A stretch of 52,244 bases of DNA from Minisyncoccota bacterium (GCA_031291955.1 JARLIA010000012.1:1-52244); one strand, 5' to 3'. Counted from the first letter of the stretch, positions 32,348 through 47,980 are shown. Notes: a model not told the origin generated them from the sequence alone. Translations and numbers: made by a program.

Positions 32348-32390
32348 AAGGCAATATGTTTCGGCAGATTGAGCCGAAACATATTGCCTT
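32348..32390. terminator. 18-bp-stem hairpin between convergent miaA and 32413-32655 (probably a bidirectional terminator)
   Basis: aaggcaatatgtttcggc-agattga-gccgaaacatattgcctt. The T-run is on the minus-strand side. Confidence 0.65.
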
Positions 32391-32412
32391 AGTTAAAGTC
32401 CGGAGTTGTTGC

Positions 32413-32655
32413 TTAGGCCCCCACAAAGAGATATTCCACCTCCGGATCCTGATGACTGACGCTGTTTATTGCTCCGCTCTGGAACAGCGGCTTCTTAATC
32501 AAGCAAGACTGGCAACTTATTGAATGGAACACACTCCCATTGGGAAGCTTAGCATCAGCCAATTTTGCATGCTCCCCACAACCAGCGCAGTACCCCACCC
32601 TGCCGTTCACCGATACTAGGATTAAAACCGAATGGAGTTTTTCTGAATATAACAT
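32413..32655 (-). CDS. Small zinc-ribbon-like protein
   Basis: AGGAGG lies 5 nt upstream of the ATG. It has CAGCGEH...CQSC. Confidence 0.55.
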   Translation of the reverse strand: MLYSEKLHSVLILVSVNGRVGYCAGCGEHAKLADAKLPNGSVFHSISCQSCLIKKPLFQSGAINSVSHQDPEVEYLFVGA

Positions 32656-32890
32656 TGCCCCCTCCTTCCGCCACAGTTCTGGCAGATTTTGTTTTTAAAA
32701 AAACTATTCATCACGCTCCACGGATAAAAAAAATCACCCGCGAAGGTGAAAATTGAAAAAACTATAAACTATTGTTGGCTTCCTAAAACGTGGTTTTATT
32801 TGGTTCGGTTCCATATCTTCAAGCATTATAGCACTTGGGAAAATCCAGACAAGGCAGAGATATCCACAGGCAAAAAATAAAAAACTATCC

Positions 32891-32926
32891 TTTAAAAATT
32901 TTAGCCAGGGGTGTTACCCTGGCTAA
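32891..32926 (-). terminator. Rho-independent terminator of the Cys-rich gene
   Basis: The stem ttagccaggg/ccctggctaa has a 6-nt loop and a T-run on the minus strand. Confidence 0.75.
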
Positions 32927-32933
32927 GACTAGG

Positions 32934-33116
32934 TTAGGCATGGCAAGCAACGGCCATGCAAATATTGCAGTCGCGTTCATCGAAAACCGGATCTGGGCAC
33001 GTTTCACAACCCAGATGCTCGTTTTGTCGGCGAGTGCAGTACGAACACTCACGACAAATACACCTTTCCGTTTTCTGCCCAAGTTGACCAAATTCTATTC
33101 CTCCTGTCATAGGCAT
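32934..33116 (-). CDS. 60-aa cysteine-rich protein (9 Cys)
   Basis: The internal ATG lies 6 nt after AGGAGG: MPMTGGIEFGQLGQKTERCICRECSYCTRRQNEHLGCETCPDPVFDERDCNICMAVACHA. It has its own terminator. Confidence 0.6.
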   Translation of the reverse strand: MPMTGGIEFGQLGQKTERCICRECSYCTRRQNEHLGCETCPDPVFDERDCNICMAVACHA

Positions 33117-33254
33117 AGTTTTCCTCCTGCAAATAGAAGACCTGTCCAGCAATTTCCACTCTGAAACTGAATCCGACAGATTCCGGATTAATTTTAGGGT
33201 GGCAATGATAAAAAAGAACTAAAAAACAATTTTGACAACCGGATTTATCCACAG

Positions 33255-34724
33255 TTACTTCAATTTGTCTTTCAGCATCTTCTCGGATGCTTGCGGGTTT
33301 GCCTTGCCTCGGCTTTCTTTCATGACTTGTCCAATCAAAAACTTCAGCGCGTTTTCTTTGCCGGCTTTGTAGGCTTCGACCGATTGGGCATTGGCGGAAA
33401 TCACTCCGTCCACTATCTTTTCTAATTCCCCCGCATCTTCCATTTGGGCCAGGTTTTTTTCCTCAATAATTTGCGACGGGTCGCCGCCAGTCTGATACAT
33501 CTCAAGCAAAACGGTTTGTGCCGCACTGGAATTTATCTTTCCCGCGGCGACGTATCCAATGAGTTCGGCATAATTTTCCGGCGTGATTTTGATGTCAGCA
33601 ATCGCGTGGCCATGATCGGACAAATGTTTTTTCAATTCGGTGAGAATATAGTTGGCCGCCAACTTCACCGCCTTTTCATCATCCGCCTTAATCTCTCCGC
33701 ATTCTATCTTCTCACGCAATTCACTGATCGTCTCTTCGAAATATTCAGCCAAATCCTTGTCGACCACTAAAACTTCCACGTCACTCGCCAGCAATTTGTA
33801 TTCTTCCATGAATCGCTTCGTTTTCTGGTCCGGCAATTCCGGCAATTTCTTTTTCAGCTCTTCAAAGTTTTCTTTGGTAAACTCGAGCGGCGGAATATCC
33901 GGCTCGGGAAAATAGCGATAATCATGAGCCGACTCTTTCACTCGTTGCGAAACCGTAACGCCCTTTCCCGAATCGAAGCCGCGTGTTTCCTGAATCACTT
34001 TTTCACCTTTCTCCAGTATTTCCGTCTGGCGTTCGATTTCGTAAGCAATCGCTTTTTCCACGAACTTGAAACTGTTGATGTTTTTCACTTCCACTTTGGT
34101 GCCGGACAGTTTATCCTCCCCTTCTTTGTATAATGAAATGTTCGCTTCGCAGCGCATCATCCCTTTCTCCATGTCAGCGTCCGAAATTTCCAAGTACCGA
34201 CAGATCTGCTGGAGCTTCTGGCAAAAAAGCCGCGCCTCCTCGCCCGTTTCGATGTCTGGCTCGGTCACCAGTTCCATAAGCGGCACCCCGGCCCGATTGA
34301 AATCGACCAGCGTATAACTCGTGCCTTTCGGATGGATCAGTTTTCCCGTATCTTCTTCCAAGTGGATACGGGTAATGCCGATTTCTTTGCCGTTGATTTT
34401 TAATTTGCCTTTCTCGCAAAGCGGCTGATCATATTGGGAAATCTGATAGCCCTTCGGCAAATCGGGATAAAAATAGTTCTTGCGGTCAAACTTCGACTGC
34501 AACCGCAGTTCGCACCCCAAAGCCAGTCCGGCTAGTTGCACAAACTCGATCGCCTGGCGATTGGGCACCGGCAACGTCCCGGGTTGCCCGGTGCAAACCG
34601 GACAGATGTTGACGTTCGGCTTTTCTTCCAAGCCCAGGCCGTTTTTCGAATCGCAAAACATCTTGGATCTGGTTTTCAGTTCCACGTGGATTTCCATGCC
34701 GATGACGGGAGTATATTTAGCCAT
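33255..34724 (-). CDS. gatB: Asp-tRNA(Asn)/Glu-tRNA(Gln) amidotransferase subunit B
   Basis: VIGMEIHVEL...NICPVCTGQPGTLP...NRAGVPLMELVTEPD, plus a C-terminal GatB/YqeY domain. Confidence 0.93.
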   Translation of the reverse strand: MAKYTPVIGMEIHVELKTRSKMFCDSKNGLGLEEKPNVNICPVCTGQPGTLPVPNRQAIEFVQLAGLALGCELRLQSKFDRKNYFYPDLPKGYQISQYDQPLCEKGKLKINGKEIGITRIHLEEDTGKLIHPKGTSYTLVDFNRAGVPLMELVTEPDIETGEEARLFCQKLQQICRYLEISDADMEKGMMRCEANISLYKEGEDKLSGTKVEVKNINSFKFVEKAIAYEIERQTEILEKGEKVIQETRGFDSGKGVTVSQRVKESAHDYRYFPEPDIPPLEFTKENFEELKKKLPELPDQKTKRFMEEYKLLASDVEVLVVDKDLAEYFEETISELREKIECGEIKADDEKAVKLAANYILTELKKHLSDHGHAIADIKITPENYAELIGYVAAGKINSSAAQTVLLEMYQTGGDPSQIIEEKNLAQMEDAGELEKIVDGVISANAQSVEAYKAGKENALKFLIGQVMKESRGKANPQASEKMLKDKLK

Positions 34725-34744: not shown

Positions 34745-35167
34745 CTACTTGCCCGTACTCCCGAATCCGCCCGCTCCTCTTTGCGAATCATCCAAAGCGG
34801 AAACCTCCTCTATCTCCGGATTATATATCTTTTGGATCAAAATTTGAGCGACCTTATCACCTTTTTCTATTTTATAATCTTCCTGACCCAGATTGACCAG
34901 AATCACCTTGACTTCCCCTCGATATCCGCTGTCGATGACGCCGCCCAGCGTCTCAATTCCGAACTTGGCCGCAATTCCGCTTTTGTCCCAGATCAACCCG
35001 GCATATCCCTCGGGAATTTCCATGGCGACACCCGTCCCGCAGGCATATCTTTTTCCTGGCTCGATGATAACATTCTCGATCGAGTGAAGATCCATGCCAG
35101 CATCTCCCGGCAAAGCAAACTTAGGCATTTCGGCGTCCGTATGCAACTTTTTTACAAGCACTTTCAT
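34745..35167 (-). CDS. dut: dUTP diphosphatase
   Basis: AGMDL, GVIDSGYRGEV and the C-terminal RGAGGFGSTG motif are present. The start is placed at MKVLVKKL (the ORF extends to 35188). Confidence 0.9.
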   Translation of the reverse strand: MKVLVKKLHTDAEMPKFALPGDAGMDLHSIENVIIEPGKRYACGTGVAMEIPEGYAGLIWDKSGIAAKFGIETLGGVIDSGYRGEVKVILVNLGQEDYKIEKGDKVAQILIQKIYNPEIEEVSALDDSQRGAGGFGSTGK

Positions 35168-35201
35168 AGCTTTTTGATTATAGATCAACCGTTTAATATT
35201 T

Positions 35202-35714
35202 TCAACTGGCCGCTTTTTTCACCGCGTATCTCAATACGATCGAATCATCATTTATTTTTTCAATACTTTTCAATTTTAAATCGACATCAAAATCTCCCTT
35301 GAAAAGCCCCAACCCCTCACCGAAAATTTTCGGCTCGATTGTCACGATTATTTCATCGATCAATCCGTGTTGTAAAAATAATCCGTTAATATACGCTCCT
35401 CCGCCCAAAACAGCGGACTCATGTCCCATCTTTTCCAACTCGGCGACAACTTCTTTCGGCTCTCCCTTCACCCACTTCACTCCTTCGATCGGTTTCGGGT
35501 TTTTCTCCAAAGTGAACACGACATTTAGCCGATCATTCAATGGCGCTGGAAAAGTGAAAAAGGTCTTATCGCCCATAATGACCACCCCCGCTTCCTTGGA
35601 AATCTTTTGAAATAGCTTCTTATCCTCCCGACTCGTCCAGTCCGGAAAATGATCGCTCGTTTTGGCGATCTTCCCGTCCATGGTCATCGCCATCATCATT
35701 GTAATCCTGAGCAT
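35202..35714 (-). CDS. Dihydrofolate-reductase-family (RibD C-terminal domain) reductase
   Basis: MAMTMDGKIA...VIMGDKTF...LGGGAYINGLFLQHGLIDEIIVTIEPKIFG is the RibD_C/DHFR-like pattern. Confidence 0.75.
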   Translation of the reverse strand: MLRITMMMAMTMDGKIAKTSDHFPDWTSREDKKLFQKISKEAGVVIMGDKTFFTFPAPLNDRLNVVFTLEKNPKPIEGVKWVKGEPKEVVAELEKMGHESAVLGGGAYINGLFLQHGLIDEIIVTIEPKIFGEGLGLFKGDFDVDLKLKSIEKINDDSIVLRYAVKKAAS

Positions 35715-35778
35715 AATTTCGTTTTTAGAAGCCTTAAATCTCTTTTATTATAGCCGTTCTTAATCAATTTATCAAGTA

Positions 35779-35807
35779 TTGACTTTTTGAGCATCCTGTA
35801 TTATACT
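35779..35807 (+). promoter_or_regulatory. Sigma70-like promoter
   Basis: TTGACT, 17-nt spacer, TATACT, about 45 nt upstream of the GTG at 35851. Confidence 0.5.
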
Positions 35808-35850
35808 AATTTGAAACCTTACATTGACAACCAAAAAGAGGAGGCAACGC

Positions 35851-36354
35851 GTGAAAAAGACTATTGAAGAAATCGTAAGGGAATTTTCTGAAAAACTTCC
35901 GAAGTTTCCTGATGGTCGGATTGATTATTCAACCTCAAACAGCGCGCCGGTTATCATAATTTTCGTTATGGTCGGCAATGAGATTTTGCTTCTGAGACGA
36001 AGCACCAAAGTATTTGCCTATCAAGGCAAATGGAGTGCAAACGCCGGCTTCTTGGATAATGAAAAACCCATCCAAGAAAAGGTTACGGAGGAACTCATTG
36101 ACGAATTAGGAATCACCGAGGAGCGCCTAGCGTGGCTGATTACGGAGATTAAAATCTGTGAGTACTATGAATTCAGGGACGAGAAGTCCGGCAAGACTTG
36201 GATTAAAAATCCGGTACTTGTCAGACTAAAGGAAAAACCGAGCATAGTTCTTGACTGGGAGCATGACCGCTTCCGGTGGATCGAGGTGGATGAGCTGGCC
36301 AAATTCGACACGGTCATCGACTTGGAAAACGCACTCGAACGCGCTTTGAATTAA
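35851..36354 (+). CDS. NUDIX-family hydrolase (degenerate Nudix box)
   Basis: The GTG lies 6 nt after GAGGAGG (the ORF track starts at 35824). It has GKWSANAGFLDNEKPIQEKVTEELIDELGI. Confidence 0.7.
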   Translation: MKKTIEEIVREFSEKLPKFPDGRIDYSTSNSAPVIIIFVMVGNEILLLRRSTKVFAYQGKWSANAGFLDNEKPIQEKVTEELIDELGITEERLAWLITEIKICEYYEFRDEKSGKTWIKNPVLVRLKEKPSIVLDWEHDRFRWIEVDELAKFDTVIDLENALERALN

Positions 36355-36368
36355 AAAGCGCCTTTAAA

Positions 36369-36405
36369 ATGGGCAGGCTTAAATAGCTGCCCATTTTTCT
36401 TTTTC
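36369..36405 (+). terminator. Rho-independent terminator
   Basis: The stem atgggcag/ctgcccat is followed by tttttcttttt. Confidence 0.7.
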
Positions 36406-36438
36406 CCAGAATAGCCCGAAGCGGCTTTGCTAGCCATA

Positions 36439-36467
36439 TTGTCAACATCATATCCAGGTGATAATAT
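36439..36467 (+). promoter_or_regulatory. Sigma70-like promoter
   Basis: TTGTCA, 17-nt spacer, TAATAT. Confidence 0.45.
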
Positions 36468-36488
36468 GGCTATATAAGATAATAACGA

Positions 36489-37085
36489 GTGATCCCTATG
36501 GATGTTAAACTATCAAGTTTTTTAGGCAGCGGAAGACTTATTTCCACAGAAGATATAAACAAAATCACAACCGCATTAAAAAACAACGGTTACAAAATCG
36601 TGTTGACCCAGGGCGTGTGGGATCTTATTCATGAAGGACACGCTAAATACCTTCAGAAGGCGAAGGGATTTGGCGACATCTTGATAGTCGCGGTTGACAC
36701 CGATGAAGTGGTGAGGCATCGCAAAGGACCCAACCGTCCGATCGTCCCGGAAAAAGAGCGGGTTAAGATGATATCGCACCTGAAATATGTCGATCTGATT
36801 GTCATGAAAGAATCGAAAACCGACCACAACAAACTGATTAGGACCATAAAACCCGATGTTCTTGTCATATCGGATTCCACTCCTTCGAACAAAGAGGGCA
36901 AAAGCTTTTTTGATGAAGTGAAAGAAGAACACGAAAAATTCTGTGGAAAAATCATCAATCTGAAACCGCAATCAACCACCTCGACGACCGCGCGAATTAG
37001 ACTCCTGACTATCAAAGGAGCTGAGGATCTGGCAAAAGAATTGCAAAAATCCATAGAAAATTTCTTATATAACAACAAGATATAA
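36489..37085 (+). CDS. Cytidylyl/adenylyltransferase-fold protein (HxGH nucleotidyltransferase; TagD/RfaE-II/RibL-like)
   Basis: TQGVWDLIHEGHAKYL...ILIVAVDTDEVVRHRKGPNRPIVPEKERVKMISHLKYVD. Confidence 0.75.
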   Translation: MIPMDVKLSSFLGSGRLISTEDINKITTALKNNGYKIVLTQGVWDLIHEGHAKYLQKAKGFGDILIVAVDTDEVVRHRKGPNRPIVPEKERVKMISHLKYVDLIVMKESKTDHNKLIRTIKPDVLVISDSTPSNKEGKSFFDEVKEEHEKFCGKIINLKPQSTTSTTARIRLLTIKGAEDLAKELQKSIENFLYNNKI

Positions 37086-37102
37086 ACTTATAAACAACAA
37101 CT

Positions 37103-37954
37103 ATGCCCCCAAAAAAAATCCTAATCGCCTTGGTCCCCGTTATCCACATTAAATATTTGGAGCTATTCAAAAAATATCCGGACCATCTTTATATTTTAGA
37201 TGACACAATTCTGAAAAAATGGGATAAATTTGAAAACCTGAAAAGAGACCTCCGGACCATCGACCAGGAAACTATCTGCAACTTCGTCAAGAAGTCCGGC
37301 CTGGTGAAGAAAATCGACCTTCTGAAGCCGGATAAGTTGAAAGATATAACCGACCCAAAAGAAGATTCTCCCATCGTCATGCCAAATGAGGATGTATCCC
37401 ATTGGTTTGCAGAAAAATTCTTGCAGGACAAAAAAGTTAAATTTGAAAATGTTTTCCTTAGATGGAACAGGCCAGTTTCAACGCAGGAATTGGAAGTTTC
37501 CAGCGATAGGATAACAACGCAAGAAAAAGCCCACCAGGAGCTGATAGGCAAAGCCGATGAGCTGAAAGAAAAAAGCGCCAATTGGTGGCGACAAATCGGC
37601 GCCCTGGTCACAGATGCGAAAGGTTCAATAATACTTTCGGCCTTCAATCGCCATGTGCCCACTCAAGAAAATATGGCGGTTTACGGAGATTTGAGAATGT
37701 GTTTTGACGCCGGCGAAAATCATCATCTGTCCAACTCCATCCACGCGGAAGCTTCCCTAATTGGAAAAGCCGCTAAAGACGGAATTAGCCTTAACAACAC
37801 CAATTTATACGTCACGACCTTTCCTTGTCCGACCTGCGCCAAGTTGGTAGCCGAAGCGGGAATCAAAAAAGTTTATTATCAAAGCGGCTATTCCCTTTCT
37901 GACGCGGAAGATATTCTCAAGAATGCCGGAGTGGAAATTATTTTAGTCAAATAG
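37103..37954 (+). CDS. Deoxycytidylate (dCMP) deaminase domain with an unassigned N-terminal domain of about 140 aa
   Basis: The C-terminal half has HAEASLI (Zn His plus catalytic Glu) and PCPTCAKLV. I do not recognise the N-terminal half. Confidence 0.8.
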   Translation: MPPKKILIALVPVIHIKYLELFKKYPDHLYILDDTILKKWDKFENLKRDLRTIDQETICNFVKKSGLVKKIDLLKPDKLKDITDPKEDSPIVMPNEDVSHWFAEKFLQDKKVKFENVFLRWNRPVSTQELEVSSDRITTQEKAHQELIGKADELKEKSANWWRQIGALVTDAKGSIILSAFNRHVPTQENMAVYGDLRMCFDAGENHHLSNSIHAEASLIGKAAKDGISLNNTNLYVTTFPCPTCAKLVAEAGIKKVYYQSGYSLSDAEDILKNAGVEIILVK

Positions 37955-38011
37955 AATTGCATCAAAAAACTCGCAAACGATGCGGTTTTTTTGTTTGCTT
38001 GAATATTTCTT

Positions 38012-38452
38012 TTAACCGATTCTCGTGATAACCGGCTCTTCATTGTCAGCCACGACCAACTGGGCGTGCAAGTGTTGCACGGTCGCGCCTGTCATGCCAG
38101 TGCTGTCCGACCGCATCAAAAAAGTGCTATGGGTTATTTTAAGTTCTTTTTTTATTTTTTCAACAATATTCCACAGATCCAGAATTTCATCCGCTTTCAT
38201 TTCCTCGGGAATAAAAATATGGCGCTTGATCACAAGAATCAGATGCTCCCGCGTGTGTTCATATGGCCAAGCGTTTCTCGTTACCACCCAGAAATCAGTT
38301 TCTGTGAGAACAGGATTGGGATGATAAGTTGGTTTTTTCTTGTCGATAAAATCATGGCAAAAAGGACAACCTCCGTCGGCTATAATCTTTTTCATCAGCG
38401 CGATCTGGTCTTTTCTGCGGGCATTGTTCAGATCCAATCCGCTTTTATTCAT
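38012..38452 (-). CDS. HIT-superfamily protein with an HxHxQ (GalT/transferase-type) motif
   Basis: It has CPFCHDF near the N-terminus, ...WPYEHTREHLILVIKRH... and TVQHLHAQLV. Confidence 0.7.
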   Translation of the reverse strand: MNKSGLDLNNARRKDQIALMKKIIADGGCPFCHDFIDKKKPTYHPNPVLTETDFWVVTRNAWPYEHTREHLILVIKRHIFIPEEMKADEILDLWNIVEKIKKELKITHSTFLMRSDSTGMTGATVQHLHAQLVVADNEEPVITRIG

Positions 38453-38476
38453 ATCTTTACATTCATTGGTTACATC

Positions 38477-39454
38477 CTAAATCGGTGTCGGGATCTTAAA
38501 CCAAGCTTCAGGCTCATAATCATCAAGGAGGAAGTCTTCTTTGCGAAAATCTTGAAGTCTCGTCACGTCTCTATCGGTCCTCAGTGTTACCGTTGGAAAA
38601 GGTTTTGGCTTGATGGATAAAATTTTATCCACGGATTCCGCTTGAATATCATAATAGTGCGGATTGGATAAGAAATGGGTGTACTTGGTAAATTTATACC
38701 CCAAGAGATGCGCTACCATCAAACCAAGAGCAGACCACTCGATCAGATTAAGCTGCAAGCCCACCGGAACATCAGCCGATCTTTGTGTGTGCGTCATTTC
38801 CAATTCTTTTTGCTCATCAAAAAGTACAAAGTGGATAAAATTACCATGACAAGGAGCAACAACAACTTGGCGCTTGAAGCCTTGCGCTTCGTCTCCCATT
38901 GATAGGGGCGGATTCCAGGTGGTCAAAACGTGAGTTCTTAAAAACGGCGCTTTCTCCATTTGCCTCTGGACCGCGCTGACTTGATCAAATTCTCCCTTCG
39001 CGGATCGAAAGTGACCCAAAGAGGCTCCGTAAGACCCTTCCCCCAAATCGCCCTCGGGCAAACCGAATATCGCACACTTTTCTTTTGTGACCCAATCCTT
39101 CCAGAAAACTTCCGGACAACCATACTCTTTGAGACCGCCGAGCGTGCTTTGCCCATTTAAGAATGCCACCAGTTCCCCGATCGCACCGTAAAATGATTTG
39201 GATAAATCACGCTCCGTCAAAACAGGAAAACCATTACTCATTTTAAACTGCAACATGGCGCCGGTTATCTCTTTTGAATTCTGATGCCCGGAAGCGGCAT
39301 TCTCAGAAAGCCTGACGTGAATAGGCACCTTGTCCTTGCCTGTTGTTTTGATTTTTTTAAGCAATTCTTGATATTGAAAATCAGGAGTTCTTTCATTGTA
39401 TGGAATATAATCGATGCCGCCTTTTGTTTTATTTTGAGCTTCTTCTCTTGCCAT
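38477..39454 (-). CDS. thyA: Thymidylate synthase (ThyA) superfamily enzyme, divergent
   Basis: The catalytic APCH, TTWN, QRSADVPVGLQLN (compare ThyA QRSCDVFLGLPFN) and PHYY (compare THLY) are present. The N-terminal DRTGTGT and ELLWFL motifs are not conserved. Confidence 0.7.
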   Translation of the reverse strand: MAREEAQNKTKGGIDYIPYNERTPDFQYQELLKKIKTTGKDKVPIHVRLSENAASGHQNSKEITGAMLQFKMSNGFPVLTERDLSKSFYGAIGELVAFLNGQSTLGGLKEYGCPEVFWKDWVTKEKCAIFGLPEGDLGEGSYGASLGHFRSAKGEFDQVSAVQRQMEKAPFLRTHVLTTWNPPLSMGDEAQGFKRQVVVAPCHGNFIHFVLFDEQKELEMTHTQRSADVPVGLQLNLIEWSALGLMVAHLLGYKFTKYTHFLSNPHYYDIQAESVDKILSIKPKPFPTVTLRTDRDVTRLQDFRKEDFLLDDYEPEAWFKIPTPI

Positions 39455-39497
39455 TTTATTATTTTTTAATATTTTTTATTATCTCATCGTAATTATA

Positions 39498-40067
39498 TCA
39501 GACACTCTTTCTCATAAGCAACCGACTCATTATTTCATCCGCCTGATTGTGAATCCCTGCAATATCACCGGCATTAATAATCATATGATCCGCCATGGCA
39601 ATCGGTCCGGCCTGGCTCAAGTTTTCTATCTGCGCCCAATCTCGGCTTTGCGCCTCTTCCGGCATCAGCGGACGCGCCGCACGCTTTCCCAATCTCTCAT
39701 ATCTGACATTGGGCGGGGCATAAAGGGAAATTACGATAAAATTATCCGGAAAATTTTTCTTAAAAAGAATATATTCTGTCCAACTGTACAAACTTTCCAC
39801 CAAGACATGCTCAGAATTTTTGATAGCGTTAACTTTTTTAATCATCTCCTTGGCATAATGGTCTGCTCCGAATTTTTTCCGCAAACCTTCCCGCACCAGC
39901 CGCTCGTTTTTTTCATTTATTTCCAATCCTCTTCGCTTCATTTCATCAAAAGTCACCTCGCCAAAATATACTTTCGGCCAATGGAATTTTTCCAAAAGAT
40001 ACTTCATCAATTCTGACTTGCCCGCCCCGGGCAAACCGACCACGGCGATAATTTTCCGGTTTTTCAT
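39498..40067 (-). CDS. P-loop nucleoside/nucleotide kinase-like protein
   Basis: Walker A is GLPGAGKS. Size (189 aa) and the Arg-rich lid RYERLGKRAARP are typical of small NMP/dephospho-CoA-type kinases. Confidence 0.6.
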   Translation of the reverse strand: MKNRKIIAVVGLPGAGKSELMKYLLEKFHWPKVYFGEVTFDEMKRRGLEINEKNERLVREGLRKKFGADHYAKEMIKKVNAIKNSEHVLVESLYSWTEYILFKKNFPDNFIVISLYAPPNVRYERLGKRAARPLMPEEAQSRDWAQIENLSQAGPIAMADHMIINAGDIAGIHNQADEIMSRLLMRKSV

Positions 40068-40166
40068 ATAAACGATCTTTTAATCATCTTACTATTTTCA
40101 TTATTATCCGTCAAAAAATCCCGCGCTTGCGGGATTGTCGGTTTCATGTTATGCAAATAGTTCCTC

Positions 40167-40742
40167 CTACGCGCTCCGCGATTTCCTGATTTCTTCCATC
40201 ATCTCGTCCGTCTGTTTTTTCAGTTCTTCCGGCGTGCCATTGTTGCCGAGCTTGTAGTCGGCCTGGCGCCCGATTTCGTGGATGGAAACTTCCGTCAATT
40301 TCCCTTCTTCTTCCAAAAATTCCTGAAAAGTGGCGTCCCCCTCTCCTTCGTTTTGTTTCCGGGCTTTCGTACGCTCAAAGCGGAGCTTCAGATCGGCCGT
40401 CACATAAACCAGAAAAAAATTCTCGCCGTATTTTTTCCGGAACGGATCAACGTCGCCGTGCATCCGGATGCCGTCGGCAATGATCACATCCGATCCGTTT
40501 TTTTCCATATCCTTAATGAGCGAATCGATGATGACCGACGGACCATAGCCTTCCTTGAGAACCAGAGCTAATTTCACCAAATTGTCGCGCGTTACGCTCA
40601 CGTGCAGATCTTCCAAGGTGCGCCGCAGAATCTTGGACGTGCCATAGTGGATGGCGCCGTATTTTTCAATTAGATAATCGGAAACCGTCCCCTTGCCGGA
40701 ACCTTTTTCGCCGATGAGACCGATAACGATTTTTTCAGCCAT
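40167..40742 (-). CDS. P-loop (d)NMP-kinase-like protein
   Basis: It has GEKGSGKGT and IADGIRMHGD (compare the D-x-R motif of phage dNMP kinases) plus the lid RFERTKARK. Confidence 0.6.
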   Translation of the reverse strand: MAEKIVIGLIGEKGSGKGTVSDYLIEKYGAIHYGTSKILRRTLEDLHVSVTRDNLVKLALVLKEGYGPSVIIDSLIKDMEKNGSDVIIADGIRMHGDVDPFRKKYGENFFLVYVTADLKLRFERTKARKQNEGEGDATFQEFLEEEGKLTEVSIHEIGRQADYKLGNNGTPEELKKQTDEMMEEIRKSRSA

Positions 40743-40846: not shown

Positions 40847-41536
40847 CTATAAAGTTATTCTCAAGCCCACGCCCATTGTAGACGTCAGGGAAATATTGCC
40901 AATCATCTTGCCTTTAAGTCCCGCCGGTTTGGCTTTCTCCACGCCGGACATGAAAGCTTTGACATTTTCAATTAATTTAGCGTCGTCAAAAGACAGCTTG
41001 CCAACCGCCTGGTGGATATTGGCCGAGTTGTCATTTTTGAAAGCGGCTTTGCCTTTTTTGAGCGCTTCGACTGTTTCTTTGATCTTAGTTGTCACTGTTT
41101 CCGTTTTGGGATTGGGCATCAAGCCTTTGGGTCCCAAGATTTTGGCGACCGGCGCGAGTTTCGGCATCATTTCCGGAGTAGCTACCAGAATATCAAAACC
41201 ATTTTTGGCGGAAAATATTTTACCGCTCTTGATTTCTTCAATCAATTCTTCGCCAGCCACAATGTCTGCGCCAGCCTCTTTGGCGTCTTTTGCGTGAGTG
41301 GTGGTGATGACAGCAATCTTTTTGCTTTTGCCTGTGCCGTGCGGCAGATCAACCGTGCCGCGCACTTGCTGGTCGCCTTTTTTCGGATCAACATTGGTCC
41401 TCACATGCACTTCCACCGACTCGTCGAACTTGGCAATCTTATTCTCTTTCAAAAATTTCACCGCCTCTTCGAGCGAATAAACTTTATTGCGATCGAATTT
41501 CTCCGCGGCCGCGCGGTACTTTTTTCCGTGTTTCAT
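40847..41536 (-). CDS. rplA: 50S ribosomal protein L1
   Basis: [15 protein letters not shown]...[28 protein letters not shown]. The ORF extension to 41599 runs through repeat sequence. Confidence 0.93.
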
Positions 41537-41556
41537 ATATTTTCGTGGTGATAGCG

Positions 41557-41590
41557 AATTACGTAATATATTACTTACATATGTACGTAC
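41557..41590. repeat. TTACGTAA-type motif block upstream of rplA
   Basis: The sequence is aattacgtaatatattacttacatatgtacgtac. Confidence 0.65.
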
Positions 41591-41670
41591 CTCTCCCACA
41601 AATTAAAAATAATTAAATCAAATTGAGTAAAGAGTGGAGCGCATGGCGCCCCGCTCTTCTATGCAGATAG

Positions 41671-43832: not shown

Positions 43833-43905
43833 GGGCCCGTAGCTTAGTTGGTAGAGCGCCTCGTTTGCATCGAGGAGGTCAGCGGTCCGAATCCGCTCGG
43901 GTCCA
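43833..43905 (+). tRNA. tRNA-Ala (anticodon TGC)
   Basis: It folds as a cloverleaf: acceptor gggcccg/cgggtcc with the G3:U70 Ala identity pair, anticodon loop tt-TGC-at and T-loop tccgaat. No CCA is encoded. Confidence 0.9.
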
Positions 43906-43916
43906 CAGGAAAGAAT

Positions 43917-47904: not shown

Positions 47905-47978
47905 GGGCGATTAGCTCAGTTGGTTAGAGCGCGTCACTGATAATGACGAGGTCCGAGGTTCGAGTCCCCGATCGCCCA
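47905..47978 (+). tRNA. tRNA-Ile (anticodon GAT)
   Basis: The acceptor is gggcgat/atcgccc, with the D-arm agctcagttggttagagc, anticodon loop ct-GAT-aa and T-loop ttcgagt. Confidence 0.9.
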
Positions 47979-47980
47979 CT

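What the first reader, a model, noticed from the sequence alone, without database searches (positions are those of the whole stretch)
34745..40742. Ten-gene pyrimidine-deoxynucleotide cluster that holds more than a thymidylate cycle
Within 6 kb and with minimal spacers lie ten genes. They are dut, a RibD_C/DHFR-family reductase, a Nudix protein, an HxGH cytidylyl/adenylyltransferase, a dCMP deaminase fused to an unknown domain of about 140 aa, and a HIT protein with a transferase-type HxHxQ motif. They also include a divergent ThyA-family enzyme and two different small P-loop kinases, one with a phage-dNMP-kinase-like GSGKGT...DGIR pattern. The null hypothesis is a salvage/thymidylate module: dCMP and dUTP to dUMP, dUMP to dTMP, DHF to THF, then phosphorylation. 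Against the null, there are two nucleotidyltransferase-type enzymes, an extra Nudix protein and an extra kinase, and the ThyA homolog has diverged in its folate/phosphate-binding motifs. That parts list is the one phages use to make 5-hydroxymethyl- or further decorated pyrimidine dNTPs. Such a cassette in a cellular reduced genome could mean modified genomic DNA or an unusual salvage route.
Basis: partly seen in the sequence, partly recalled or inferred. Interest (0 to 1): 0.7.

Follow-up and report, generated by a model that had tools for sequence, protein, structure and literature searches.

The report
Five-gene thymidylate cassette with extra enzymes
This is a thymidine-nucleotide synthesis gene cluster, not a DNA-modification pathway, but its core is an undescribed five-gene cassette shared by tiny Patescibacteria and Streptomyces-type bacteria in which two extra nucleotide-transfer enzymes of unknown substrate always accompany the thymidylate enzymes.

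Summary
The region holds nine genes, not ten.

The ThyA homologue keeps the catalytic and dUMP-specifying residues of thymidylate synthase. It also keeps the C-terminal closure that T4 and SPO1 hydroxymethylases lack. A DHFR-family gene lies in the cluster, and relatives add glyA, tmk and ndk. The phage-like hypermodified-pyrimidine reading is therefore not supported.

"More than a thymidylate cycle" is supported. Five genes travel together:
- module-type ThyA, followed by a HIT protein;
- a DHFR-family reductase;
- an HldC/GCT-like nucleotidyltransferase (NTase), followed by a dCMP deaminase fused to a cryptic NTase-like domain.

They co-occur in 61-62 of 62 Patescibacteria species loci. They also co-occur in about 80 Actinomycetota loci, including cultured Streptomyces, where the flanking genes are not conserved. 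DHFR-HIT fusion proteins are common.

dut, the two archaeal-type (UPF0200-like) kinases and the Nudix gene are lineage-specific additions.

Best model:
- dCMP is deaminated to dUMP, which ThyA methylates to dTMP with folate recycling. This part is well supported.
- The NTase and HIT proteins pass (d)NMP groups to link this cycle to the dNTP pool, perhaps turning dCTP into dCMP. This part is inference.

No literature on the cassette was found.

The parts
38477..39454 (-). Module-type thymidylate synthase (ThyA clade shared by Patescibacteria and Actinomycetota); core cassette gene
   Evidence: Pfam Thymidylat_synt 154.9 bits. In 78 clade sequences E58, W80, Y94, C146, H147, R166, S167, D169, G173 and N177 are invariant; R127 is Thr in 78/78 and R21 is never Arg. 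The C-terminal IPTPI aligns with E. coli APVAI. It is 38% identical to the Streptomyces cassette ThyA and 26% to E. coli ThyA.
38012..38452 (-). Divergent HIT-family protein, 24 bp downstream of thyA; core cassette gene
   Evidence: The alignment shows an invariant CPFC motif, N60, W/P/Y, and the H127-x-H129 nucleophile motif; the third triad residue is Q or H. The profile matches Hint-type HIT structures (5uvm, E 2.4e-6). HIT is present in 62/62 loci (59 as a separate gene within 5 kb of thyA, 3 as DHFR-HIT fusions); it lies immediately downstream of thyA in 53 and immediately upstream in 4. It is fused to canonical DHFR in about 30 of the best 150 representatives.
36489..37085 (+). HldC/RfaE-domain-II/GCT-like nucleotidyltransferase (HEGH, RKGPNRP, TSTTARI motifs); core cassette gene
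   Evidence: CTP_transf_like 70.9 bits. TIGR02199 111.5 bits, below its 181.5 cut-off. PDB matches: ECT 3elb, HldC 5x9q, 3glv, GCT 1coz. Adjacent to and co-directional with the fused deaminase in 61/62 Patescibacteria loci; present in 80/81 Actinomycetota-type loci. HxGH is conserved in both phyla.
37103..37477 (+). N-terminal domain (residues 1-125) of the fused deaminase: cryptic nucleotidyltransferase-like Rossmann domain with motifs PxxHxGY, (R/K)(D/E)(I/L)R and FLRW
   Evidence: No Pfam or PDB sequence match. The AF2 model has pLDDT 84.8. Top Foldseek hits are 3glv, HldC 5xf2, Fom1 CyTase 5x3d and GCT 2b7l/1coz (E 0.007-0.08, TM 0.5-0.6). Motifs are conserved in both phyla. hhalign against the neighbouring NTase is not significant.
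37529..37954 (+). C-terminal dCMP deaminase domain (HAE, PCPTC) of the same protein; core cassette gene
   Evidence: dCMP_cyt_deam_1 59.7 bits. Foldseek top hits are T4 dCMP deaminase 1vq2, S. mutans 2hvw, S-TIM5 4p9c and human DCTD (E 1e-11 to 1e-8).
35202..35714 (-). DHFR-family reductase (intermediate between DHFR_1 and RibD_C) in the cassette's DHFR slot
   Evidence: RibD_C 77.5 and DHFR_1 45.3 bits. A DHFR-family gene lies within 5 kb of thyA in 61/62 loci. In many relatives and in Streptomyces that slot holds a canonical DHFR_1 of 146-184 bits. CPR folA genes complement E. coli delta-folA (PMC11974145).
34745..35188 (-). dUTPase (dut); frequent but not universal neighbour
   Evidence: TIGR00576 157.5 bits, above its 102.55 cut-off. 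Within 5 kb of thyA in 26/62 loci.
39498..40067 (-). P-loop NMP-kinase-like protein (UPF0200/SSO1041 family); lineage-specific addition
   Evidence: Best PDB match 3lw7/3h0k, E 3e-12. Below all tmk/cmk/coaE cut-offs. Near thyA in 3/62 loci.
40167..40742 (-). Second P-loop NMP-kinase-like protein (UPF0200/SSO1041 family, PRK08356-like); lineage-specific addition
   Evidence: 3lw7/3h0k, E 1.4e-13. PRK08356 71.2 bits, below its 189 cut-off. Partial match to the kinase-like half of the anti-phage dCTP deaminase model. Near thyA in 17/62 loci.
35824..36354 (+). Nudix-family protein; sporadic neighbour, not part of the cassette
   Evidence: NUDIX 33.1 bits. Near thyA in only 8/62 loci and absent from the Actinomycetota cassettes.
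35747..35807 (.). Divergent promoter-like pair between the DHFR-family gene (-) and Nudix (+)
   Evidence: Consensus scan: TTGATA-17-TATAAT (11/12) on the - strand and TTGACT-17-TATACT (10/12) on the + strand. Pattern matches only.
37971..37985 (+). Terminator-like hairpin with a T-run in the 57-bp gap where the two transcription units converge
   Evidence: Pattern match only.

Best explanation
The region is the Moranbacteria version of a dTTP-precursor cluster built around a five-gene cassette:
- a module-type ThyA;
- a DHFR-family reductase;
- a HIT-family enzyme;
- an HldC/GCT-like nucleotidyltransferase (NTase);
- a dCMP deaminase carrying an N-terminal NTase-like domain.

Well-supported steps:
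- The deaminase converts dCMP to dUMP.
- dUTPase adds dUMP from dUTP.
- ThyA methylates dUMP to dTMP using methylene-tetrahydrofolate.
- The DHFR-family enzyme regenerates tetrahydrofolate. Relatives also keep SHMT next door.
- Kinases carry dTMP onwards. Here these would be the two UPF0200-type kinases; relatives have Tmk and Ndk.

Inferred step: the NTase and HIT enzymes are integral catalytic partners of the cycle.
- The NTase probably pairs with the NTase-like domain of the deaminase.
- The HIT protein probably pairs with DHFR and ThyA.
- Together they would move a deoxypyrimidine-monophosphate group between phosphate carriers, linking the monophosphate-level enzymes to the triphosphate pool.
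- The most economical version is dCTP + X-P -> dCDP-X + PPi by the NTase, then dCDP-X -> dCMP + X-P by HIT. That supplies the dCMP that the deaminase needs.

My confidence in the thymidylate core is about 0.85. It is about 0.3 for this specific role of the NTase/HIT pair.
For: Core enzymes:
- Domain identities.
- Catalytic residue survey of the ThyA clade, 78 + 63 sequences.
- The ThyA C-terminus aligns with E. coli and is absent in T4 gp42 and SPO1 gp29.
- The deaminase fold matches solved dCMP deaminases.
- The DHFR slot holds a canonical DHFR_1 in many relatives.
- CPR folA genes complement E. coli delta-folA.
- glyA, tmk and ndk lie beside the cassette in relatives.

NTase and HIT are integral:
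- Patescibacteria, 62 species loci: fused deaminase 62/62, NTase 62/62 (adjacent in 61/62), DHFR 61/62, HIT 62/62.
- Actinomycetota-type loci, 81: the same five genes in 69-81, with non-conserved flanks.
- All four non-DHFR proteins are 31-41% identical between the phyla.
- DHFR-HIT fusions occur in 4 species genomes and about 30 of the best 150 HIT representatives, within the same gene order.
- The NTase-like fold of the deaminase N-domain matches the same PDB families that the neighbouring NTase hits.
- Catalytic motifs are conserved: HxGH in the NTase and the HxH nucleophile in HIT.
- One viral contig carries the NTase plus fused-deaminase pair on its own.
Against: - No substrate of the NTase or HIT enzyme is shown. 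The carrier X-P is hypothetical.
- A single pyrophosphatase could make dCMP from dCTP, so two enzymes seem uneconomical.
- Sequence-level homology between the N-domain and the NTase is not significant, and the fold match is modest (TM 0.5-0.6, E about 0.01).
- The observed fusions (HIT with DHFR, NTase-like domain with deaminase) do not obviously match the proposed order of steps.
- The window's ThyA and NTase fall below NCBIfam equivalog cut-offs, so even the core activities rest on residue conservation rather than assay.
- Whether the genomes have another TS (ThyX) or a dCTP deaminase could not be checked.
Confidence: 0.6

Rival explanations
1. Ordinary thymidylate and salvage cluster. The HIT protein and the cytidylyltransferase-like enzyme are unrelated housekeeping genes (for example a Hint-type phosphoramidase and an FAD-synthetase or heptose/glycerol-phosphate NTase). 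They sit there only through inherited gene order in small genomes.
For: Both belong to broad families with many unrelated roles. The cassette lies among ribosomal-protein genes in Patescibacteria, where synteny is generally stable. RefSeq gives them only generic names.
Against: The same five genes co-occur in Actinomycetota with non-conserved flanks. DHFR-HIT fusion proteins are frequent. An NTase-like domain is fused to the deaminase in every member. The NTase plus fused-deaminase pair also occurs alone on a viral contig.
Confidence: 0.12
2. The NTase, the NTase-like domain and the HIT protein are mainly non-catalytic. They would serve as nucleotide-sensing (dCTP/dTTP) or scaffolding modules that assemble and regulate a dCMP-deaminase/ThyA/DHFR complex, by analogy with the T4 dNTP-synthesising complex and with protozoan DHFR-TS fusions.
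For: The fusion partners are exactly the cycle enzymes. In the N-domain the position aligned with the first His of HxGH is Pro, and the motif reads PxxHxGY. GCT-family and HIT proteins are dimers (established knowledge), so they could bridge dimeric ThyA and oligomeric deaminase.
Against: The free-standing NTase keeps HxGH, RKGxxRP and an (S/T)TT..R motif. HIT keeps its nucleophile His in every member across two phyla. That pattern is what selection on catalysis would produce.
Confidence: 0.15
3. One reading: a pathway for 5-hydroxymethyl or further decorated pyrimidine dNTPs, giving modified genomic DNA. The ThyA homologue would act as a hydroxymethylase and the NTase/HIT pair would decorate the base.
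For: ThyA is divergent: below NCBIfam cut-offs, R127 is Thr, and R21 is lost in Patescibacteria. Extra kinases, a Nudix protein and two nucleotide-transfer enzymes are present.
Against: Asn177 and His147 are invariant, and the TS-type C-terminus is kept (PMC8670742). DHFR, SHMT, Tmk and Ndk lie in the neighbourhood. No dTTPase, 5-HMUDK, aGPT-Pplase or glycosyltransferase was found. The clade is absent from viral collections. HxHxQ is not conserved. The kinases and Nudix are not part of the conserved set.
Confidence: 0.04
4. Nucleotide-depletion or anti-phage cassette related to dCTP-deaminase defence systems, at least in Actinomycetota, where it is sporadic and has variable flanks.
For: Partial PADLOC and NCBIfam hits of the deaminase and kinases to the anti-phage dCTP deaminase model. 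Patchy distribution with non-conserved flanks in Actinomycetota.
Against: The hits cover single domains and lie far below the cut-off (74.6 against 400 bits). In Patescibacteria the cassette is conserved across many sampled species and embedded among ribosomal-protein and nucleotide-metabolism genes. ThyA and DHFR make no sense in a depletion system.
Confidence: 0.04

Closest known systems
Bacterial thyA-folA (thymidylate synthase / dihydrofolate reductase) operons and protozoan bifunctional DHFR-TS
   Same: ThyA-family enzyme with the full set of catalytic residues, next to a DHFR-family enzyme. The same folate cycle is expected. Fusion or tight linkage of cycle enzymes is a known theme.
   Different: The ThyA belongs to a separate clade: 26-32% identical to E. 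coli ThyA, R127 always Thr, with clade-specific insertions. The unit always includes a HIT enzyme, an HldC-like NTase and a two-domain dCMP deaminase. The fusion seen here is DHFR-HIT, not DHFR-TS.
Phage pyrimidine modules (T4 cd/td/frd/gp1/gp56; SPO1-type dUMP hydroxymethylase pathway)
   Same: dCMP deaminase, a ThyA-family enzyme, DHFR, dUTPase and NMP kinases are clustered.
   Different: The enzyme is dUMP-type with a TS-like C-terminus, not a hydroxymethylase. There are no dTTP/dTMP-depleting or base-decorating enzymes. The ThyA has no close phage relative (under 30% identity), and the fused N-domain is absent from all 50,697 cultured-phage records.
GCT/ECT/HldC/RibL class of HIGH-motif nucleotidyltransferases
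   Same: The free-standing NTase has HxGH and an RTEGISTS-like motif and matches these structures by sequence. The deaminase N-domain matches them by fold.
   Different: It falls below the cut-offs of every equivalog model (heptose-1-P adenylyltransferase, glycerol-3-P cytidylyltransferase). Its genomic partner is a dCMP deaminase, not a sugar or lipid pathway. The acceptor substrate is unknown.
HIT superfamily (Hint, Fhit, Ap4A phosphorylase, GalT branches)
   Same: HxH nucleophile motif, CxxC zinc motif, and an N-x-x-P-Y motif like that of the Fhit and Ap4A-phosphorylase branch (the last point is from memory of those families).
   Different: Very divergent: Pfam 20 bits for the window protein, and the best PDB profile E-value is 2e-6. 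The third triad residue varies between H and Q. It is the only HIT clade I know of that is fused to DHFR and fixed beside thyA.
Anti-phage dCTP deaminase (kinase-like domain + deaminase; NF041025 / PADLOC dCTPase)
   Same: A dCMP-deaminase-type domain fused to an N-terminal nucleotide-binding domain. The window's two kinases resemble its kinase-like half.
   Different: The N-terminal domain here is NTase-like, not a P-loop. Scores are far below the family cut-off. The genomic context is biosynthetic.

Membership tests
Thymidylate synthase ThyA (PF00303 / NCBIfam thym_sym) | Catalytic Cys146-His147, Arg166-Ser167, Asp169, Glu58, Tyr94, Trp80 | tested here: met
   Invariant in 78 Patescibacteria sequences, and in 62-63 of 63 Actinomycetota cassette sequences.
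Thymidylate synthase ThyA (PF00303 / NCBIfam thym_sym) | Asn177 (uracil rather than cytosine specificity) | tested here: met
   Asn in 78/78 and 62/63. The rule comes from PMC8670742.
Thymidylate synthase ThyA (PF00303 / NCBIfam thym_sym) | C-terminal segment that closes the active site (E. coli ...KAPVAI) | tested here: met
   ...KIPTPI aligns with it; T4 gp42 and SPO1 gp29 lack it. The terminal residue is I or V in 70/78.
Thymidylate synthase ThyA (PF00303 / NCBIfam thym_sym) | Four phosphate-binding arginines (R21, R126', R127', R166) | tested here: not met
   R127 is Thr in all 141 sequences. R21 is absent in Patescibacteria (0/78) but kept in Actinomycetota (62/63). R126 and R166 are kept. 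From memory of L. casei mutagenesis (Kawase et al. 2000), R21 and R127 are the two substitution-tolerant arginines; I could not verify this here.
Thymidylate synthase ThyA (PF00303 / NCBIfam thym_sym) | Score above curated family cut-offs | tested here: inconclusive
   Pfam 154.9 bits, above its 24.3 cut-off, but TIGR03284 99.5 bits is below 108.35 and all PRK01827 models are far below their cut-offs.
Thymidylate synthase ThyA (PF00303 / NCBIfam thym_sym) | Makes dTMP and dihydrofolate; complements a thyA mutant | not testable with these tools
   Needs an experiment.
Phage dUMP/dCMP hydroxymethylase pathways | Asp at position 177 (dCMP type), or loss of the TS C-terminal closure, or a close relationship to gp42 or gp29 | tested here: not met
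   Asn177; C-terminus kept. In the alignment E. coli ThyA is 24% identical to gp42 and to gp29. The best phage match is under 30% identical and annotated as TS.
Phage dUMP/dCMP hydroxymethylase pathways | Companion enzymes: dTTPase/dTMPase, 5-hmU DNA kinase, aGPT-Pplase/AADT, glycosyltransferases | tested here: not met
   None among the nine proteins. Parts list from PMC8989533.
dCMP deaminase (PF00383, dCMP type) | H-A-E and P-C-x-x-C zinc motifs, and a dCMP-deaminase fold | tested here: met
   H214/E216 and C242/C245 are invariant. Foldseek top hits are 1vq2, 2hvw, 4p9c and 2w4l.
HIT superfamily | H-x-H-x-H-x-x motif with the central His as nucleophile | tested here: met
   H127 and H129 are invariant; the third position is Q (Moranbacteria) or H (other lineages). 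All 18 aligned members hit Pfam HIT.
   Q is not conserved. The protein has a single 146-aa domain. The GalT profile match has E 0.6.
HldC/RfaE domain II, glycerol-3-P cytidylyltransferase (TIGR02199, TIGR01518) | HxGH and RTEGISTS-type motifs, and a score above the equivalog cut-off | tested here: inconclusive
   The motifs are present. The scores, 111.5 and 55.3 bits, are below the cut-offs of 181.5 and 165.4. The superfamily domain model TIGR00125 is passed (57.1 against 27.7 bits).
Dihydrofolate reductase | DHFR_1 domain and DHF-reducing activity | tested here: inconclusive
   The window protein scores DHFR_1 45.3 bits (above 25) but RibD_C 77.5 bits. The syntenic slot holds a canonical DHFR_1 in relatives. 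Activity was not tested. CPR folA genes from other MAGs complement delta-folA.
Tmk / Cmk / CoaE / phage dNMP kinase (for the two kinases) | Score above the equivalog cut-off | tested here: not met
   All are far below their cut-offs. Pfam DNMK scores 20.1 bits against 27.1. The best relatives are UPF0200/SSO1041, 3lw7/3h0k.
Anti-phage dCTP deaminase (NF041025 / PADLOC dCTPase) | Full-length kinase-like plus deaminase architecture above the cut-off | tested here: not met
   74.6 bits against a 400 cut-off, on the deaminase core only.

The most novel reading that the evidence does not exclude
The five-gene cassette is a self-contained, kinase-independent converter of dCTP into dTTP.
- The NTase joins dCTP to dTMP, giving a dC-5'-pp-5'-dT dinucleotide plus PPi.
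- The HIT enzyme resolves the dinucleotide with PPi into dCMP plus dTTP.
- The fused deaminase turns dCMP into dUMP.
- ThyA and DHFR turn dUMP back into dTMP.

The triphosphate would be handed from C to T by nucleotidyl transfer, with no ATP used. This would explain why exactly these five genes travel together in two phyla.

A weaker form has the pair act as a two-step, carrier-mediated dCTP-to-dCMP route. That weaker form is my working model.
Probability: 0.07. Interest if true: 0.9.

Novelty: new variant of a known kind. Interest (0 to 1): 0.6.

Why it matters
Thymidylate synthesis is among the best-studied and most drug-targeted pathways. A conserved version that always carries two extra, catalytically intact nucleotide-transfer enzymes, with a frequent DHFR-HIT fusion, points to a step or control layer missing from current pathway maps.

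In Patescibacteria, which cannot make nucleotides de novo, this step may define how deoxycytidine nucleotides are turned into thymidine nucleotides.

The same cassette occurs in cultured Streptomyces, for example Streptomyces sp. NBC_00114 (five consecutive genes, accessions MCX5422355-59 on a near-identical strain record). The question can therefore be tested directly by genetics and biochemistry.

It also assigns a context to a HIT clade, an NTase clade and a domain with no Pfam family.

Tried and rejected
- Phage origin or hydroxymethylase reading. I ran tblastn of ThyA against 50,697 phage records (all under 30% identity), scanned IMG/VR for the clade (none), and aligned it with T4 gp42 and SPO1 gp29. 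Rejected.
- HxHxQ as a transferase signature. Rejected, because orthologues have HxHxH.
- Riboflavin/FAD reading (RibD-type deaminase + RibD_C reductase + RibL-like NTase). Considered and rejected. The deaminase matches dCMP deaminases far better than RibD/RibG (ribD 16.6 bits). The reductase slot is canonical DHFR in relatives. ThyA, glyA, dut, tmk and ndk surround it.
- Sequence homology between the deaminase N-domain and the neighbouring NTase. hhalign was not significant, so only fold-level similarity is claimed.
- Pfam and PDB sequence searches of the N-domain found nothing.
- The HIT-ThyA fusion P0399 sits on one 1.8-kb contig only. I do not rely on it.
- Defence-system libraries gave only partial domain hits.
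- Plasmids carry no full-length relative.
- Literature searches for the cassette, for a DHFR-HIT fusion and for Patescibacteria ThyA found nothing specific. A search to verify the arginine-mutagenesis literature also found nothing.
- The strictly kinase-free idea is weakened, because Tmk and Ndk genes lie near the cassette in several Patescibacteria.
- I could not test whether cassette-bearing genomes lack thyX, dcd or other dCMP sources, because whole genomes cannot be scanned with these tools.
- Both structure-prediction jobs went to the fused deaminase, so there is no model of the ThyA clade or of any complex.

Full report
**What is there**

The window is a chromosome fragment of a Candidatus Moranbacteria/Moraniibacteriota (Patescibacteria) bacterium. 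Its closest relatives are so labelled. Between gatB (33255-34724) and rplA (40847-41599) lie nine ORFs, not ten, separated by spacers of 13-134 bp.

They form three apparent transcription units:
- (-) DHFR-family gene, then dut, then possibly gatB.
- (+) Nudix, then NTase, then fused deaminase.
- (-) kinase, kinase, thyA, then HIT.

A divergent promoter-like pair lies at 35747-35807. A terminator-like hairpin lies at 37971-37985 in the convergent gap (pattern matches only).

The ThyA homologue scores 154.9 bits on Pfam but falls below all NCBIfam thymidylate-synthase cut-offs. The HIT protein is very divergent (20.2 bits). The first roughly 140 residues of the deaminase match no family.

**The ThyA homologue**

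It belongs to a large clade. One search lists 471 proteins at E <= 1e-5, and sources name them 'thymidylate synthase'.

I aligned it with E. coli ThyA, T4 dCMP hydroxymethylase (gp42) and SPO1 dUMP hydroxymethylase (gp29). I then surveyed 78 Patescibacteria and 63 Actinomycetota sequences.
- Glu58, Trp80, Tyr94, Cys146, His147, Arg166, Ser167, Asp169, Gly173 and Asn177 are invariant in Patescibacteria, and conserved in 62-63 of 63 Actinomycetota sequences.
- Positions 177 and 147 are the published discriminators of dUMP-type from dCMP-type enzymes (PMC8670742).
- The C-terminus (...KIPTPI) aligns with E. coli ...KAPVAI, the segment that closes the active site. I know that role from the TS literature. 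Both phage hydroxymethylases lack it.

The real differences are:
- Arg127 is Thr in all 141 sequences.
- Arg21 is lost in Patescibacteria only.
- There are three clade-specific insertions.

From memory, R21 and R127 are the two phosphate-binding arginines that tolerate substitution. I could not verify this in the held literature.

No phage ThyA is more than 30% identical. IMG/VR holds no member of the clade. I therefore read it as a genuine but distinct dUMP methylase.

**The fused deaminase**

The family is about 275-295 aa long and always has two domains. The C-terminal half has the HAE and PCxxC motifs. In an AlphaFold model (pLDDT 84.9) it superposes best on T4, S. mutans, cyanophage S-TIM5 and human dCMP deaminases.

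I modelled the N-terminal domain alone (pLDDT 84.8). It is a five-stranded Rossmann-like domain. Its best structural matches are all HIGH-motif nucleotidyltransferases: 3glv, HldC 5xf2, Fom1 cytidylyltransferase 5x3d, and GCT 2b7l/1coz. The scores are E 0.007-0.08 with TM 0.5-0.6. These are the same structures that the neighbouring NTase gene matches by sequence.

Its motifs PxxHxGY, (R/K)(D/E)(I/L)R and FLRW are conserved across two phyla. Sequence-level homology to the neighbouring NTase is not demonstrable.

**HIT and NTase**

The HIT protein keeps a CPFC motif and the His-x-His nucleophile motif in every member. The third triad residue is Gln in Moranbacteria and His elsewhere, so the 'transferase-type HxHxQ' argument fails. 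Its profile is closest to Hint-type structures, though weakly.

The NTase has HEGH, RKGPNRP and TSTTARI motifs. It resembles HldC, ECT and GCT but falls below every equivalog cut-off.

**Conservation**

In 62 species-level Patescibacteria loci with enough flank (ThyA identity 40-90%, many orders), one search gives these counts:

| Gene near thyA | Loci (of 62) |
|---|---|
| Fused deaminase | 62 |
| NTase | 62 (adjacent and co-directional with the deaminase in 61) |
| DHFR-family gene | 61 |
| HIT | 62 (59 separate genes within 5 kb, 3 DHFR-HIT fusions; immediately downstream of thyA in 53, immediately upstream in 4) |
| rplK | 41 |
| glyA (SHMT) | 28 |
| dut | 26 |
| Kinase 40167-40742 type | 17 |
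| Kinase 39498-40067 type | 3 |
| Nudix | 8 |

These counts rest. Tmk and Ndk genes also lie near the cassette in several lineages.

A profile search of 1.84 billion representative proteins found about 30 DHFR-HIT fusions among the best 150 HIT relatives. Their DHFR domains are canonical, scoring about 150 bits or more in full-length fusions. One such fusion sits in the same thyA / DHFR-HIT / deaminase / NTase order.

**The cassette outside Patescibacteria**

A single high-GC IMG/VR contig carries the NTase plus fused-deaminase pair. Following that lead into the species genome collection gave 323 relatives. The best 80 are labelled Actinomycetota or members of that phylum, and they include cultured Streptomyces, Thermomonospora, Actinokineospora and Micromonosporaceae.

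In the 81 loci examined (those 80 plus the viral contig), the counts were NTase 80, fused deaminase 81, HIT 78, ThyA 80 and DHFR 69. Nothing else in the flanks is conserved (<= 8 of 81).

Identity between the window and Streptomyces proteins is 38% for ThyA, 31% for HIT, 41% for the NTase and 34% for the fused deaminase. ThyA is only 26% identical to E. coli ThyA.

RefSeq names the five consecutive genes generically.

The conserved unit is therefore a five-gene cassette. The window's dut, two kinases and Nudix are add-ons.

**How it most likely works**

These steps rest on sequence and structure evidence:
- dCMP deaminase makes dUMP.
- dUTPase adds dUMP.
- ThyA makes dTMP.
- The DHFR-family enzyme recycles folate. 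CPR folA genes complement E. coli delta-folA (PMC11974145). Relatives add SHMT.
- Kinases carry dTMP onwards.

The following is inferred:
- The NTase and HIT enzymes are catalytic partners of this cycle. They are never lost, they keep their catalytic motifs, and they or their folds are fused to cycle enzymes.
- Both families transfer NMP groups at the alpha-phosphate. The cycle runs on monophosphates while cells hold triphosphates.
- My best guess is therefore that they link the two phosphate levels. The most economical version makes dCMP from dCTP through an NDP-X intermediate.

This step is unproven. I give it about 0.3, and the core about 0.85.

A bolder version has dCTP + dTMP -> dCppdT -> dCMP + dTTP, giving net dCTP-to-dTTP conversion without kinases. 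It is chemically coherent, but nearby tmk and ndk genes weaken it.

**Comparison and novelty**

The core is a known kind of system, a thymidylate operon. The invariant addition of a HIT enzyme, an HldC-like NTase and an NTase-like domain on the deaminase appears undescribed. So do the DHFR-HIT fusion and the cross-phylum cassette. Four literature searches found nothing on them.

The modified-DNA reading is not supported.

Noticed in passing
window 32356-33255: About 900 bp between miaA and gatB has no credible ORF. There is no Rfam match at gathering threshold, and only chance-level hits at E <= 1. It could be an unrecognised RNA or a decayed gene.
   Followed up: partly
window 43833-43906 and 47905-47979: tRNA-Ala(TGC) and tRNA-Ile(GAT) are the pair usually found in the 16S-23S spacer. 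Here they stand alone, 4 kb apart, with protein-coding ORFs between them and no rRNA in the window.
   Followed up: no
L096-L099 (e.g. L098:8891-9832), L183:327-1262, L184:1254-2189; proteins P0337, P0349, P0406: Canonical DHFR fused to the cassette-type HIT domain. This accounts for about 30 of the best 150 HIT representatives and four species genomes. I found no paper describing such a fusion.
   Followed up: yes
L102-L181 (e.g. L116:7347-10732, Streptomyces sp. NBC_00114 NZ_CP108201.1): The same five-gene cassette occurs in many Actinomycetota, including cultured strains, with non-conserved flanks. Those organisms have full nucleotide metabolism (my own knowledge), so its role there is unclear.
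   Followed up: partly
L101:5477-6837 (IMGVR_UViG_3300037483_001116, 158 kb): A high-GC contig classed as viral carries only the NTase plus fused-deaminase pair within the 12.8 kb held, with no ThyA, DHFR or HIT there. No cultured phage record has the fused N-domain.
   Followed up: partly
L100:87-1481 (protein P0399): An apparent HIT-ThyA fusion protein of 464 aa, seen on a single 1.8-kb contig. It may be real, or a frameshift joining adjacent HIT and thyA genes.
   Followed up: partly
L059, L066, L067, L070, L074, L083, L084 (around thyA): Several Patescibacteria loci carry a second HIT-family paralogue next to thyA in addition to the cassette-type one.
   Followed up: no
window 39498-40067 and 40167-40742: The two kinases are paralogues of the uncharacterised archaeal UPF0200/SSO1041 family. 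They also resemble the kinase-like N-terminal half of anti-phage dCTP deaminases, which hints at a deoxycytidylate-related substrate for that whole family.
   Followed up: partly
L022:12368-13060, L023:11652-12341, L028:12272-12961, L038:12271-12960: In close Moranbacteria relatives a weak Tmk-like gene lies between the DHFR-family gene and dut. In the window those two genes are only 13 bp apart and no such gene is present.
   Followed up: no
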